Shown here one piece after another: positions 8,068-58,446 of a stretch of DNA of 64,000 nucleotides. The stretch covers positions 28,830,001 through 28,894,000 of the forward strand of contig OX597830.1 in assembly GCA_951406725.2 (NCBI GenBank), given 5' to 3'. The DNA is from Octopus vulgaris (Eukaryota). A program made the translations under genes and the position numbers. Position 1 is the stretch's first letter, and every line of letters starts with the position of its first letter. The notes under the pieces are model-generated. The model was not told the DNA's origin. It did not search any database and saw nothing but the letters and a program-made list of their open reading frames with translations.

Positions 8068-8124
8068 GATATATATATATAGCAATAATAATTCTCTAAA
8101 AGGGATATAGACAGTCCCTGCTTG

Positions 8125-8357
8125 ATAACATAAGGGACTAAAGCCATCTGAATATGGCTAGGGACAGGGCAGGGTGGTGGGGGTGTTACTGTTGCATTTA
8201 GCCCCAGGCGAACATCGACGTCACCAGAAAGAGGGCACCGTGATGGTGTCGAGCCTTTCTGGTGACGTCGATGTTCGCCTGGGGCTAAATGCAACAGTAA
8301 CACCCCCACCACCCCGCCCTGTCCCTAGCCATATTCAGATGGCTTTTAGTCCTTATG

Positions 8358-8361
<4 letters not shown>
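8125..8361. repeat. fold-back palindrome, ~107-bp arms
   Basis: 8125-8231 is the reverse complement of 8255-8361 with about three differences; the ORF track gives near-identical peptides on both strands; right end runs into (TA)n. Confidence 0.95.
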
Positions 8362-8445
<84 letters not shown>

Positions 8446-12363: not shown

Positions 12364-13484
12364 ATGAATGTATATGTGTATGCGTGTGTCTATATGTGTA
12401 TGTGTGTGTGTATAAACTCTTGCATTTTTGTTACTTATATAACAGATATGAGGTCATCGGGCTTAAGTGTTACATCTGGCAAACTTATATATTATTCAAT
12501 AAAGATTTTATTGTAAAATTATTTACCTTAGTTTGTATTCTATTTCGTTGCATATATTTCAGAATACGTCTATGAACATCTGAGATATACATATATGTGT
12601 GCATGTTCAATACATACAAAGACTTGTTTTTTTCTTGGACAATTCTTTTCCTTCTCTCCGACTTTTATATAGATATATCACTTTCTTAAATACACGATTT
12701 TGTTTATATATACATACCTATACAATATATAGATTTATACATGTAAGTATGTGTATATGTATGTGTTTGTGTGTTTCTGTTGTACGGCAGTTTTGTTCCT
12801 TACAATTTTACTTGTTTGGTCAAGTACCCCAAATCAAACTGCCTTTCCATTTACTATACCATACCATGTTTGCCCTGCATGCAACTGTCTTACTGCCACT
12901 AAGTTTCTGCTGAACAATAGCTACCTTTTGAAATCATTTATTGTCACGTACGGAATCCTTTACCGGAATGACTATAAGTAAATTTAAGACAAGTTATTAG
13001 CCACAGATACACACGTTCAAACATCCAGAACAGCAAATTTTTAATAGTTTATACAAGTAGGATTTTTTTTGTTTTAAAGTGTCTAGCCGGCGGGTGCTTA
13101 AAATACAGTGGAGCATATGACAGCTCGTAACGCCCTCGCTACATAGTTCTTAGATTACTGGCGGAAAGTAGACTAAGTTTCTTGGCTGAGTTCCACTTTC
13201 TACATTTCCAGTTTATTTATATTTCCTGAGGTGCTTTATATGATATATATTTAGCACTAGATCAGCCTTGATATTCATCCGTGATTATGCTATATTTGTG
13301 TTTATCTAGACCCACATGTTCAACTGAGTTCTAATAGTGTGAGATGACAGGATCGCATCTGTAAATATTTCTTCCTCACCATACAATGAAGAATTGCAGT
13401 TCTATATTTAAGAGATTAGGAAATATGTGCATTATTTACATTATTTATATTTAACGAATATTTGTCCTCATCTTGTTTGTTTTT

Positions 13485-13530
13485 AACACAACGTTTCGGC
13501 TGATATTCCCTCCAGCCTTCTTCAGGTGTC
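13485..13530 (-). ncRNA. minimal type-I hammerhead ribozyme motif (family H1)
   Basis: Minus strand reads gacac-CUGAAGA-aggcug..cagcc-GAAA-cg-UU-guguu: intact core, stem I, stem II and palindromic ACGU stem III. Confidence 0.75.
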
Positions 13531-13578
13531 TTGGGGATATTTTGTCTCTCTCTCTCTAAGGTATAATTTTTGCTGTTC

Positions 13579-13817
<239 letters not shown>

Positions 13818-13866
13818 TCGAAAACTATACCTTAGGAATGAGAACCCATGTTCGAAATTTCCCCAA

Positions 13867-13913
13867 GACACCTGAAGAAGGCTTTGAGGGTACATTAGCC
13901 GAAACGTTGTGTT
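13867..13913 (+). ncRNA. minimal type-I hammerhead ribozyme motif (family H1)
   Basis: gacac-CUGAAGA-aggcu..agcc-GAAA-cg-UU-guguu; homologous to the 13485-13530 copy in opposite orientation. Confidence 0.75.
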
Positions 13914-14801
13914 AACAACAAATTTGTACAGAACAGTAAATTGTTACAGAACGGCAAATGGGGTCGTAGATTTTGCCCTTTTACGCTAAGAATCCTTCAC
14001 TCAATATATCCTGGAGAGCTTATCATACTACATTCCGTCTTTTCGTATGCAAATATATAAAATTTATCTCCTTGCCCTCTGCTCTACAAGTTCTTCTGGC
14101 CAAGAAGTTCTGCTGTTCTGTACAAAAATCCCCTACCGATATTTTTGTTATTAAGTTTTTTTCTGTAACTGCGATGAAGCTAAAATTTCCACTTGTTTGT
14201 TTTATATTTAAGAAGGAATACTTCCATGCAACTAATATATGGAGGGACCACATTTGAAATCGTGTACTATGTGCTACTGATATTATCGTTGTCACTAGTG
14301 TTGCTGTCTTGTAAATGATTTATATTAAAGTGACTAGCAATTGTACTTGTACGGGGGTGGATGTGCTGAAAGGTTCCTTGCTTTAAGAGTATGGCAAAAG
14401 ATCTGGTTGAGGGCCCAACCTTCCGAGTTATTTTCTTGCATTTAGAAAAACTGGAGGACTGATGCAAAGTGTGTGAATCTGAGAGAGGAATATATTGAAT
14501 AAAATCATAATTAACTGATCCACCTGTATTTTCTTTTACCAGGATCTTTTCAGCGCACCCTTCTATTGTCCATTTACTTCTGCCTCTTTCACACAGCTCT
14601 ATGGTGCGTTTCAATTTTGTGTTGTTTGCTTGCAACAATTCTAGTGTTTGATTTTGTAGCATACTTTTGTGTGGTAGCCATTTGTAAATTTGTCATGCAT
14701 TTAAATACAATCGTAAAATTATGTGAAACAAAATTCTTTTCCTTCTCTAACCTCAGCTATCGAGGGCAATCCTTCTTTGTATCTAGTCTTTATTCTTCTT
14801 T

Positions 14802-18953: not shown

Positions 18954-19040
18954 CACACATGTGTATATACACATGAGTATATATACTATATGCAAGCATA
19001 CATATTGACACAATGACGCACAAATATATATATATATATA

Positions 19041-19199
19041 CCGGAGTAAGCACATAAATGTCAAACAAGGTGGAAAATTGAGTACTCGAATACCAGTGGT
19101 AGAGTAATATGCTTTATTTAAAGCTAGCAAAAAATGTCCGATGAACGGCAACAGGAAACTCAGAGTAACAGGTTTTGTTGAATTTTCTGCTGCTTTAAA

Positions 19200-19203
<4 letters not shown>
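19041..19203 (+). mobile_element. (TA)n-embedded Penelope-like repeat with a degenerate hammerhead (family H2)
   Basis: Homologous to 39041-39221; ugu-CCGAUGA-acggcaacag-GAAA-cucagag-UA-aca at 19135-19170; (TA)n on both sides. Confidence 0.65.
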
Positions 19204-19297
<94 letters not shown>

Positions 19298-34488: not shown

Positions 34489-35525
34489 ATTAAATTAATA
34501 AAGATAGATGTAAAAAGCCGCTCTTCTTGGTGTTGCTGATGTTTCAGTAATTATGGAGTAGACACATGATCGTAGTTGTTGCAAATAACCATTACGTAGC
34601 CAAACACATCTCTGTAGTTAGACGTTCTTTGCAGTAACTTCGGTACGTCATATCAACCCTAGACCGGAGACAGCAAATACCTACTGCTTGAATTTGGTTG
34701 CCGGAAACTTCTAACATTTCTCGTATATAAACATACATAACAAATAGACAGATAGACTGACAGGCAGAAAAATAGATATTCAAAAACTTTTCTTCACATG
34801 CTAAGGACATAGCTGGTCAAAATTAATTCCAATGTAGAAAGAGAAGAAAATACATTCATACGTGCTTACTTGTATGCATAGGCAATATGTGAGCATGTGC
34901 ATATCTGTGAGTGATTACAGACACACACGCACACGCGCACATACACACACACACATAGATTGTAGAGGAGACCACTGCAAATTGATATTGTGATATGCCT
35001 AGTGAAACCCGAACCCCAACCCCAGATAGTTTTACTTCTGCCGATCTAATTACAGAATAAGTTTGTTCAACAGATTGTAACCGTGAATAGTCAGTAGGGG
35101 CCCTAAATAAGTGCTTCCGGTTATGACTAACTAATCCAGGCTGGGAGAGGCAAATGCTGTTGTAAGTTTTAGAAGTAAGAAGAGAAGGGTCGTTGGCCAC
35201 AATTAAGCCCTTTCTTGTTTTTTTTTTTTATTCCTTTATCACTACATGTTTCCGCTTGTTTTCTTCAAACAAGGCAGGAACGACTCAAATTTGTCATGTC
35301 GTCTGTGTGGAAAACTTTGTAAAGCTTTTGCTGGCCTAAATAGTCGTTACCAGTAAACGCTTTATATTTATTTTCTAAACTGAAAATATTTAATTCCAAA
35401 ATATTTAACTGTCGTGTGTGTGTGTATATATATATAATCATATCGAAGGGAACTGGAAATTAATAGAAATTTTCTCTTCCAGCGACTAGCGTGTAAAAAT
35501 TTAGTCCAAAGACTATGTATTGCTC

Positions 35526-35681
35526 ATAAAATACAGTGTACATTAAAACACATAAAGAATATACTGGTGGGATTCAACACGCTAGAAAGAACAGCTAGGT
35601 TCTATAACCTAGCGGTTGTTTCTAGCGTGTTGAATCTCACGAGTGGATTCCTTATGTGTTTTAATGTACGCTGTATTCTAT
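35526..35681. repeat. fold-back palindrome, ~76-bp arms, 4-nt loop
   Basis: 35526-35601 is the reverse complement of 35606-35681 with about nine mismatches; right end runs into (TA)n. Confidence 0.92.
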
Positions 35682-38364: not shown

Positions 38365-39040
38365 CATATATATACATAAACACACACACACACACACACA
38401 TACCTACACACACATATATATGCATATATACCTACGTACATACATACATATAAATATGTTGAATCATAATTATATGCTAGCCATTGTATCTAGTGTGCAG
38501 AAAAGCACAAGATTTGGAAGATGTATGTTTATACATAAGACATCTATTATGGGTGAATGTATGTTGGTGTATGCGTGCGTGTAAGAGAGAGGGGGGAGAG
38601 GGGGAGAGAGTGTGCGTGTGTGTGCTTTTGAACCTGTGTTCTTGTGTGTGTGTGTGTGTATGGGTATCTATGTGTGCGCTTGTTCGAAATTTATTTCCTT
38701 GATTTATCTTTTTAAATTTTGCAAACCATATCATGTTCCGAAATTTTCACGCGTGCATACACACAAACAGTGACATACATGCAATCACACATGCATACAC
38801 ACACGCACACACATATACACATACATATATATATATATACATCTGTTTATATATATATACACACATCTATCTATATATATATATTCACACACACATATAT
38901 ACATATATACATACATACACCTTTATAGGTACAAATGAATATGTATCTCTCTCCTTTATCTGTCTATGTACATTAATATATACATAAATAAACACAGATA
39001 GATTTATGTGTAGATATATACATATGCATATATATATACA

Positions 39041-39219
39041 CTTTATTTAAAAGCAGCAGAAATATATCAAAAGCTGTTACTCAGAGTTTCACGTTTCCGT
39101 TCGTCAGATAGTTTTTTTTCTAACAAAACCGTCCGACTTTTAAATAAAGCATATTACTCTACCTCTGGTATTCGAGTACTGTTTTATTCCACCTTGTTTC
39201 ACATTTATGTGCTTACTCC

Positions 39220-39291
<72 letters not shown>

Positions 39292-39373
39292 TATACCGGA
39301 GTAAGCACATAAATGTGAAACAAGGTGGAATAAAACAGTACTCGAATACCAGAGGTAGAGTAATATGCTTTAT
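39041..39373. mobile_element. Penelope-like repeat (family H2) with a perfect 78-bp inverted repeat around (TA)n
   Basis: 39144-39221 is the exact reverse complement of 39296-39373; homologous to 19041-19203. Confidence 0.8.
39074..39111 (-). ncRNA. type-I hammerhead ribozyme motif (family H2), core intact
   Basis: Minus strand reads cuau-CUGACGA-acg(gaaa)cgu-GAAA-cucugag-UA-acag: GAAA-tetraloop stem II, quasi-palindromic stem III, GUA cleavage triplet, one mismatch in stem I. Confidence 0.75.
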
Positions 39374-57086: not shown

Positions 57087-57155
<69 letters not shown>

Positions 57156-57200
57156 CTAAATTTCTAAATCTCTCGTAGAGACATGTACGGTAGTGGGGCG

Positions 57201-57415
57201 ATAGAAAGGTTGTATAATGTCAATCTAACACGAAATGACAGTAGAGGGGTACACCACCGCTGTTTAGCCCTAGGAAGCATCGACGCCTCCTGATGTATAT
57301 AAGGACACAGGAAAAATGTGTCAAAGCCATCAGGAGGCGTCGATGCTTCCTAGGGCTAAACAGCGGTGGTGTACTCTCCTACTGTCACTTTCGTGTTAGA
57401 TTGACAGTATACAAC

Positions 57416-57423
<8 letters not shown>
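57201..57423. repeat. fold-back palindrome, ~95-bp arms
   Basis: 57201-57295 is the reverse complement of 57328-57423 with few differences; loop contains a gacaca/tgtgtc stem; right end runs into (TA)n. Confidence 0.95.
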
Positions 57424-57448
<25 letters not shown>

Positions 57449-57979: not shown

Positions 57980-58446
57980 ATCTATCTCTCTATGTATATA
58001 TTTGCTTGTCTGTCTGTCTCTGTCACACAGACAGACACACACACACGCACACACACGCTCTTTCTCTCTCACTCTCTCTCTCTCTCTCTCTCTCTTTGTG
58101 CATCTTTAGCCCTATATATATTTAACTTCCTAGGAAGCTAAACAGTTGTCAGTGCTCGTGGCCCAATGCCTTTGGTATTCGATTCCCATATTTATAAACA
58201 AGTGGGTTCAGTTTCTTCACAGAGCTGCACGCTCTCTTTGAGCGATGACTTTGCTGAATGCTGCGTCCTTTGACAAAGTTTACCGCTCTAATGTTACGGC
58301 AGTATATGTAGCGCCAAGTCGGTCATGATTTCATAAGACTGGTCGTGATTTATCTTTACATACCTAGATAGATATATACATGCATACATGCATACAAACC
58401 CAGTTACATTCAAATATAATGATGATTTATATATCTATACGTATTT

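What the first reader, a model, noticed from the sequence alone, without database searches (positions are those of the whole stretch)
57201..57423. Second fold-back shares a ~60-nt structured core with the 8.1-kb palindrome but not its ends
Minus strands align: tttagccccaggcgaacatcgacgtcaccagaaaggctc-gacacc..ggtgccct (8 kb) versus tttagccctagg-aagcatcgacgcctcctga-tggctttgacaca..tgtgtcctt (57 kb). The loop stem is kept with a compensatory change, both fold back just after it, and both have TA on the same side. The outer arms are not alignable, the reverse of a MITE. This suggests a conserved RNA/DNA signal that triggers self-priming or template switching. The plus strand ctgatg..gacaca/tgtgtc-aaa is vaguely hammerhead-like, but the identity is unknown.
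Basis: partly seen in the sequence, partly recalled or inferred. Interest (0 to 1): 0.75.

Follow-up and report, generated by a model that had tools for sequence, protein, structure and literature searches.

The report
Head-to-head Penelope stubs sharing hairpin core
The two DNA fold-backs are real and share a 60-base core predicted to fold into the same two hairpins; they are most likely head-to-head stubs left in TA repeats by Penelope-like jumping genes, their turn-back point appears to vary between copies, and the core lacks the hammerhead catalytic motif but is likely an RNA handle for the copying machinery, possibly one that pairs two RNA copies.

Summary
Both palindromes (57201-57423; 8125-8361) exist. 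Their 59-nt cores are related (44 of 53 aligned bases; 0 of 20000 shuffles); their outer parts are not.

(1) Each unit is (TA)n + 45/43-nt tail + inverted truncated copy + longer copy + (TA)n, the published signature of Penelope-like elements (PLEs). Three other fold-backs in the window look similar, two with hammerhead motifs reading outward. (2) The shared fold lies on the outward-reading strand: hairpin A, then hairpin B with an identical self-complementary GUCGAU loop and pair-preserving changes.

Public contigs show the 57-kb unit is an abundant repeat that continues past the centre and is joined head-to-head at many places. A fixed trigger is therefore not supported; a hot spot remains open. 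The 'ctgatg' is an artefact of the inverted arm, and there is no CUGANGA.

Best reading: stubs of two diverged, apparently hammerhead-less (Naiad-like) PLE families that keep a conserved RNA structure. No RT/GIY-YIG link could be tested. The architecture is known; I did not find the core motif in Rfam or in the papers searched.

The parts
57141..57155 (.). (TA)n run at the left outer end; likely target
   Evidence: sequence
57156..57200 (-). 45-nt tail: 3' extension present on one copy only; part of the repeat family
   Evidence: covered by many contigs in all 4 runs laid (table 2); TA runs precede it in an X9 loose end (table 7)
57201..57295 (-). Inverted, more 5'-truncated copy (lacks hairpin A, carries the tail)
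57296..57423 (+). Longer copy, tail-less; inferred sense strand reads outward from the centre
   Evidence: orientation inferred from G.U pairs and from outward-reading hammerhead motifs in neighbouring fold-backs
57296..57303 (+). TATATAAG: element sequence, not target DNA; TATA-box-like (function untested)
   Evidence: other copies continue upstream through it (table 7); TATA box noted in a Penelope pLTR (PMC3846280); absent from the 8-kb copy
57304..57322 (+). Hairpin A: 6-bp stem, loop length variable among copies
   Evidence: loop indels at 57309-57312 (table 4)
57325..57357 (+). Hairpin B: AGCC/GGCT basal stem, internal loop, 7-bp upper stem
   Evidence: the only two stem variants listed (57328 C>T, 57336 G>A) keep pairing
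57339..57344 (+). Apical loop GUCGAU, identical in both families, self-complementary with G.U ends
   Evidence: 216 of 4096 hexamers are self-complementary this way
57424..57448 (.). (TA)n run at the right outer end
   Evidence: sequence
8069..8081 (.). (TA)n run at the left outer end of the second family
8082..8124 (-). 43-nt tail of the second family
   Evidence: not checked against reads
8125..8231 (-). Inverted, more 5'-truncated copy, second family
8232..8361 (+). Longer, tail-less copy, second family
8234..8250 (+). Hairpin A, second family (contains a G.U pair)
8252..8286 (+). Hairpin B, second family; loop GUCGAU at 8267-8272
8362..8395 (.). (TA)n run at the right outer end, second family

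Best explanation
The two fold-backs are most likely short head-to-head insertion stubs of two diverged Penelope-like retroelement (PLE) families that appear to lack the hammerhead, and their shared 60-base core is predicted to be a two-hairpin RNA structure, likely kept because the element's RT/endonuclease needs it to bind or pair its RNA template. Proposed steps: (1) The GIY-YIG endonuclease cuts both strands in a (TA)n run (shown in vitro on AT-rich DNA for another PLE, PMC11167929; inferred here). (2) Reverse transcription is primed from both target ends at two start sites about 45 nt apart, giving one copy with the tail and one without (two start sites bounding the tail shown for that PLE; inferred here). 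(3) Both cDNAs stop early, at variable points (variation seen). (4) They are joined head-to-head by fold-back or annealing over short self-complementary stretches. The hairpins offer such stretches, so they may bias the junction without fixing it (inferred; 3-nt ATG/CAT microhomology at this locus). (5) The core itself works at RNA level on the outward-reading strand (inferred from G.U pairs). Of its possible jobs I rank protein binding and/or RNA-RNA dimer linkage through the self-complementary GUCGAU loop first, standing in for the palindromic helix III of PLE hammerheads (untested; about 0.3 for the dimer role itself).
For: Architecture: (TA)n-tail-inverted copy-longer copy-(TA)n in both units, with the tail on the same copy. 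It matches the published PLE/Naiad description: inverted 5'-truncated copy, 30-40-bp tail at one end, (TA)n targets, no canonical hammerhead, Naiads in Octopus spp. (PMC8557442). Head-to-head pLTRs with junction palindromes are described in PMC3846280. Internal controls: fold-backs at 13476-13922 and 39144-39373 carry CUGANGA...GAAA motifs reading outward from the centre. Family evidence: 1731, 1698, 9 and 1062 contigs laid from 4 of 4 runs, covering tail and arms; the family continues upstream of 57293 (20, 10 and 10 contigs in three runs); joints are scattered; one 233-nt contig is itself a fold-back with another centre. Structure: same minimum-energy fold in both families. Between families, stems show 3 two-sided and 2 one-sided pair-preserving changes (my structural alignment of the pairs). 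Within the family, 8 substitution sites fall in the core, 6 of them in 25 unpaired positions and 2 in 34 paired positions, both keeping the pair (post-hoc Fisher p 0.05 for sites, 0.004 for pair-breaking).
Against: No RT or GIY-YIG ORF is linked: none among the 150 longest of 393 window reading frames scanned with Pfam, and no genome is held. PLE membership therefore rests on architecture alone. The tails (45, 43 nt) are slightly longer than the published 30-40 nt. Short motif searches found no match to the core at the 3' ends of the published Naiad, Chlamys or Hydra consensus sequences. Covariation rests on two families and a hand alignment; the 8-kb core folds no better than shuffles (z -1.0 alone, -0.01 for the whole copy). 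A self-complementary 6-nt loop occurs by chance 5% of the time. 5 of the 10 left-to-right joints have unknown letters between, each rests on one contig per run, and short contigs can be mis-split on a palindromic reference. Sequence upstream of about 57263 is unseen, so a hammerhead further 5' is not excluded.
Confidence: 0.62

Rival explanations
1. The core is a dedicated fold-back trigger: cDNA that has passed hairpin A snaps back and self-primes at a fixed point, so palindromic copies are the designed product.
For: Both window copies turn at the same aligned base (57328, 8255) and have perfect inner arms of 47 and 60 bp. One X1 contig spans 57252-57340 with a centre about 16 nt shorter (table 8). 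Self-priming is proposed for Penelope (PMC3846280).
Against: 10 of 14 listed joints give other junctions. Many copies run past the centre into unique upstream sequence. Plain self-copying cannot make the tail that only the inverted copy has.
Confidence: 0.15
2. The core is a non-canonical or hammerhead-derived self-cleaving ribozyme: hairpin A as helix II (basal G-C), hairpin B as a long helix III (A-U basal pair, then CUA) with a palindromic loop.
For: The helix order, the basal G-C and A-U pairs and the palindromic loop parallel PLE hammerheads (PMC4209133 passages). The ends of Naiad_Obim and Naiad_Ovul have a similar GACAC/GTGTC stem before GAAA.
Against: No exact CUGANGA in any of 4 copies on either strand. 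The one-mismatch hits lie inside hairpin B or the distal arm. The helix II-III linker is AA or G instead of GAA, and no helix I is found. No Rfam ribozyme match, though Rfam also misses the window's minimal hammerheads.
Confidence: 0.08
3. They are deletion derivatives of a TA-targeting DNA transposon with long inverted repeats (MITE or foldback type).
For: Near-total palindromes, TA flanks, variable centres, very many related contigs.
Against: One end carries a 43-45-nt family-specific tail with no inverted counterpart, in both families. The ends are not conserved between families while the centre is. Neighbouring fold-backs of the same layout carry hammerhead motifs.
Confidence: 0.08
4. They are PLE stubs, but the core is only inherited sequence (or a DNA-level promoter element) with no RNA-structure role.
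For: TATA-like box just upstream in the 57-kb family. Weak folding z of the 8-kb core. Only two families compared.
Against: The rest of the two elements has diverged beyond alignment while both stems keep pairing through changes, and the G.U pairs work on one strand only.
Confidence: 0.07

Closest known systems
Penelope-like element insertions with inverted pLTR and tail (PMC3846280, passages; PMC11167929, parts 1-2 of 4 of the text)
   Same: Head-to-head copies, tail on one end only, AT-rich target, short overlap or palindrome at the junction, TATA-like motif near the centre.
   Different: Only about 100-170 nt per copy remains; tail is 43-45 nt, not 30-40; no hammerhead motif in the retained part; no ORF seen.
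Naiad clade of PLEs (PMC8557442; passages, sections 5-6, supplement parts 1, 2, 24 and string searches)
   Same: (TA)n target, inverted truncated copy, tail, no canonical hammerhead, present in octopuses. By eye, 15 of 44 consensus 3' ends shown carry a 6-12-nt palindrome of varying sequence flanked by a stem.
   Different: No sequence match to the listed consensus ends; diagnostic protein motifs untestable; the paper describes cephalopod Naiads as old remnants.
Minimal hammerheads of PLE pLTRs (PMC4209133 and PMC6765202, passages)
   Same: Small structured motif near the 3' end with a palindromic loop that could link two RNAs.
   Different: No CUGANGA, no GAAA junction, no helix I.
Hydra clade of PLEs (PMC8557442 supplement)
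   Same: (TA)n target, short 3' ends; a Hydra family is listed for an octopus.
   Different: Hydra elements carry a canonical hammerhead about 90-210 nt from the 3' end; none is found here.
Retroviral dimer-initiation kissing loops (recalled, no call)
   Same: Stem-loop with a self-complementary 6-nt loop.
   Different: Loop ends are G.U pairs; no evidence of dimerisation here; unrelated element class.

Membership tests
EN+ Penelope-like elements | ORF with telomerase-like RT and GIY-YIG endonuclease linked to this 3' end | not testable with these tools
   No genome held; none in 150 of 393 window frames; contigs too short
EN+ Penelope-like elements | Inverted 5'-truncated copy joined head-to-head | tested here: met
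   orientation inferred
EN+ Penelope-like elements | Tail of about 30-40 bp at one end only | tested here: met
   45 and 43 nt, slightly long; 57-kb tail is family sequence
EN+ Penelope-like elements | Variable 5' truncation among copies | tested here: met
   10 different left-to-right joints of 14 listed; upstream loose ends; 57-kb family only
Canonical PLE clades (Penelope/Poseidon, Neptune, Nematis, Hydra) | Hammerhead motif in the pLTR | tested here: not met
   No exact CUGANGA in 4 copies, both strands; applies only to the roughly 200 nt visible
Naiad | (TA)n insertion preference and no canonical hammerhead | tested here: met
Naiad | N-terminal GIY-YIG, CxC and DKA motifs | not testable with these tools
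   no ORF available
Naiad | Sequence similarity to a described Naiad 3' end | tested here: inconclusive
   exact short-motif searches and reading by eye of 44 consensus ends; only a loose resemblance
Hammerhead ribozyme | CUGANGA core next to helices I and II | tested here: not met
   'ctgatg' belongs to the inverted arm
Hammerhead ribozyme | GAAA between helices II and III | tested here: not met
   linker plus basal A reads AAA (57 kb) or GA (8 kb)
Hammerhead ribozyme | Self-cleavage | not testable with these tools
   bench assay needed
HDV-like or other Rfam ribozymes | Match to a family model or double-pseudoknot pairing | tested here: inconclusive
   no Rfam ribozyme hit; pairings not found by eye; Rfam missed known-type minimal hammerheads here
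MITE / TIR transposon | Inverted repeats forming both termini, ends better conserved than the centre | tested here: not met
   one-sided tails; centre conserved, ends not

The most novel reading that the evidence does not exclude
Hammerhead-less Penelope-like elements have replaced the ribozyme with a non-catalytic RNA dimer-linkage module: a helix II/III-like hairpin pair whose self-complementary loop joins two template RNAs, so that a dimeric RT-endonuclease primes both cut DNA strands at once and produces head-to-head insertions. The sequence-varying palindromes seen in many published Naiad 3' ends would be the same device.
Probability: 0.2. Interest if true: 0.72.

Novelty: new variant of a known kind. 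Interest (0 to 1): 0.4.

Why it matters
The palindromes themselves are ordinary PLE by-products. What could matter is the core. How PLEs make inverted copies and tails, and what hammerhead-less Naiads use in place of the ribozyme, are stated open questions (PMC8557442 discussion). A 60-nt motif conserved between otherwise unalignable families, in an abundant repeat, gives a defined target for covariation analysis, junction mapping and a simple dimer or cleavage assay.

Tried and rejected
Own-genome search: no genome held.

Pattern scans: viral contigs 0 and 0; metagenomes 0, then 4 hits; prokaryote genomes 4 hits. All 8 loci match only 18-20 nt and were dropped as chance.

Rfam: no family at gathering score in the window. 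miRNA hits on the whole palindrome are generic hairpin matches below threshold; single copies give nothing relevant. Rfam also missed the 13.9-kb and 39.1-kb hammerhead motifs, so it is a weak negative.

Pfam: no RT or GIY-YIG in 150 of 393 frames; the few weak hits are below cut-off. nhmmer with the two cores found only the two elements.

(pair counts on A2) used a structure string out of register with the alignment and was discarded; pairs were taken. HDV-like, twister and pistol readings were tried by eye against recalled consensus features and did not close. A loop-to-downstream pseudoknot works in the 57-kb family but not in the 8-kb family.

Expression: no RNA holder is on record; X9 is RNA only by guess, so nothing is claimed. 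Four of the 14 joints (one goes back, one changes strand, two lie within the right arm) were left out of the junction count.

Literature searches that showed no description of this core or of a PLE kissing loop: (listings; open-licence papers only). Repbase and Dfam were not available, so the families may be catalogued there. Supplements of the 2026 bioRxiv retrozyme preprint were not seen (passages only). Earlier-finding look-ups by sequence and place were empty.

Full report
Setting. The window is microsatellite-rich, AT-rich, essentially non-coding animal DNA. Its short repeats look octopus-like to me; that label is recalled and comes from no call. No genome is held.

Observation. The 57-kb palindrome has arms 57201-57295 and 57328-57423 around a 32-nt loop; the 8-kb one has arms 8125-8231 and 8255-8361 around 23 nt. 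Their cores (57303-57361, 8233-8291) share 44 of 53 aligned bases, with 12 gap columns. None of 20000 shuffles reached that score, whereas the distal parts (354 of 2000) and the tails (409 of 5000) are at chance level. The other 15 cross-family comparisons among palindrome copies in the window score 16-30, against 36-43 for the four 57-vs-8 pairs.

Both units have TA runs on both sides. On the left, a 45-nt (57156-57200) or 43-nt (8082-8124) stretch lies between the TA run and the palindrome. In both, this tail belongs to the copy that lacks the central hairpin. Laying Logan contigs of 4 runs (three organism labels) on 57158-57424 placed 1731, 1698, 9 and 1062 contigs over tail and arms alike. 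Twenty of 24 listed runs from 8 studies hold part of the stretch. Summed depth is not a copy number, but this is plainly an abundant repeat and the tail is part of it. Other copies run on upstream of 57293 into sequence that is not the mirror arm (20, 10 and 10 contigs in three runs). The central TATATAAG is therefore element DNA, and the 'ctgatg' before it is only the end of the inverted arm. The 8-kb family was not checked against reads.

Is the turn-back point fixed? One search lists 14 joints. Ten run from the left arm or tail to the right arm, all at different places; I left out four (one goes back, one changes strand, two lie inside the right arm). A 233-nt contig is a fold-back whose shorter copy starts at 57312. 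These data are thin: one contig per joint and run, five of the ten with unknown letters between, and a palindromic reference invites mis-splitting. Verdict: not fixed, possibly biased.

What makes this layout. PMC8557442 (passages, sections 5-6) describes PLE insertions with an inverted 5'-truncated copy, a 30-40-bp tail at one end, and, for Naiads, (TA)n targets and no canonical hammerhead. Its supplement lists Naiad and Hydra families from octopuses. PMC3846280 (passages) reports head-to-head pLTRs with junction palindromes and proposes self-priming. PMC11167929 (parts 1-2 of 4) shows a PLE protein cutting and extending both strands at AT-rich DNA, with two RT start sites that bound the tail. 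The window holds its own controls. The fold-backs at 13476-13922 and 39144-39373 have CUGANGA...GAAA motifs reading outward from the centre. A third, at 35526-35681, has a one-sided extension ending in TA. I infer that the centre is the 5' side and that the two units are stubs made of two truncated cDNAs. No ORF link could be tested, so membership rests on architecture (about 0.8).

The core. On the outward-reading strand both cores fold, as minimum-energy structures, into hairpin A (57304-57322; 8234-8250) followed by hairpin B (57325-57357; 8252-8286) with the identical loop GUCGAU. On the opposite strand the 8-kb core does not fold this way. The 57-kb core is strongly structured (z -4.8), the 8-kb core weakly (z -1.0). 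Lining up the pairs by hand gives three two-sided changes (one in A, two in B, one of them beside a bulge) and two one-sided changes to or from G.U; one 57-kb pair is unpaired in the 8-kb copy. Within the 57-kb family, one search lists 8 substitution sites in the core. Six lie in unpaired positions, and the two in stems keep the pair (C-G to U.G; G.U to A-U, the latter at 20-60% of depth by run). The post-hoc Fisher p is 0.05 for sites and 0.004 for pair-breaking changes. One loop variant makes the loop a perfect palindrome, one breaks it, and one inserts a base. The loop is self-complementary with G.U ends, a 5% event by chance. Hairpin B co-folds with itself at -47.5 against -31.0 kcal/mol for two monomers (8 kb: -41.9 against -25.4), although any hairpin gains in such a duplex.

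Not a hammerhead. There is no exact CUGANGA in any of the four copies on either strand, no GAAA junction and no helix I. A structural echo remains: basal G-C of hairpin A, basal A-U of hairpin B followed by A, and a palindromic loop like helix III of PLE hammerheads, which are thought to act as dimers (PMC4209133 and PMC6765202, passages). It does not fit the non-circular hammerhead permutations either, which all keep CUGAnGA (PMC10085705, parts 3-4 of 8). A hammerhead further upstream than the roughly 30 nt seen in loose ends is not excluded.

Function. I commit to an RNA-level handle for the element's protein, with dimer linkage as the most specific guess. Circumstantial support comes from the published Naiad consensus sequences. 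Reading by eye the 44 3' ends shown, 15 from bivalves, hemichordates and a hydrozoan carry a 6-12-nt palindrome of differing sequence flanked by a stem; 29 showed none in the stretch displayed. I could not show homology between that motif and this core, and the passages I read do not discuss it.

Novelty. The fold-back architecture is known, and earlier notes of this scan reached the same class of reading in other genomes (unchecked, not support). The two-hairpin core was not found in Rfam or in the searches listed under Tried and rejected; Repbase and Dfam could not be consulted. I rate it a new variant of a known kind, interest 0.4.

Noticed in passing
published consensus 3' ends Naiad_Obim, Naiad_Ovul and Naiad_Amil, Aacu, Anas; not in the window: By eye these contain all hammerhead strands in a rearranged order: helix II 5' strand, then cleavage-site block, then GAAA block, then helix I 3' strand plus CUGAUGA, with complementary helices I-III of different sequence in octopus and coral. 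It resembles type SGC of PMC10085705 but with the helix II strand moved upstream. It could explain the authors' 'HHR_half_core' label and would give some Naiads a permuted ribozyme. Untested.
   Followed up: partly
published Naiad consensus 3' ends: 15 of 44 ends shown carry a 6-12-nt palindrome whose sequence varies between species while staying self-complementary, inside a conserved stem context; candidate RNA dimer signal or new motif. Read by eye.
   Followed up: partly
13476-13922: Head-to-head pair around a (TAA)n run, each arm with a minimal-hammerhead-type motif (CTGAAGA at 13872 + and 13525 -) with palindromic helix III; Rfam does not detect it.
   Followed up: partly
39040-39373 and 19040-19222: A roughly 185-nt TA-flanked element with a Hydra-type hammerhead motif (39107 -). 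It has an inverted partial copy around a (TA)n centre at 39 kb and a single, more diverged copy at 19 kb whose core is mutated.
   Followed up: partly
35436-35681: Another head-to-head unit with a roughly 90-nt one-sided extension and TA flanks, no CUGANGA; unrelated in sequence to the two studied.
   Followed up: partly
58105-58145: Small scrambled fragment resembling the 3' half of hairpin B in both orientations around a short TA stretch, 700 nt from the 57-kb unit.
   Followed up: no
57201-57248 / 57375-57423 and 8125-8171 / 8315-8361: All arm-to-arm differences (6 and 3) lie in the outer ~48 nt, while the inner 47 and 60 bp are perfect. Could reflect hairpin-mediated correction, self-copying of the inner part, or chance (clustered events, weak statistics).
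   Followed up: partly
57363-57371 with tail 57187-57195: Predicted 9-bp pairing between the stretch just after hairpin B and the start of the tail in the 57-kb family; no counterpart found in the 8-kb family.
   Followed up: no
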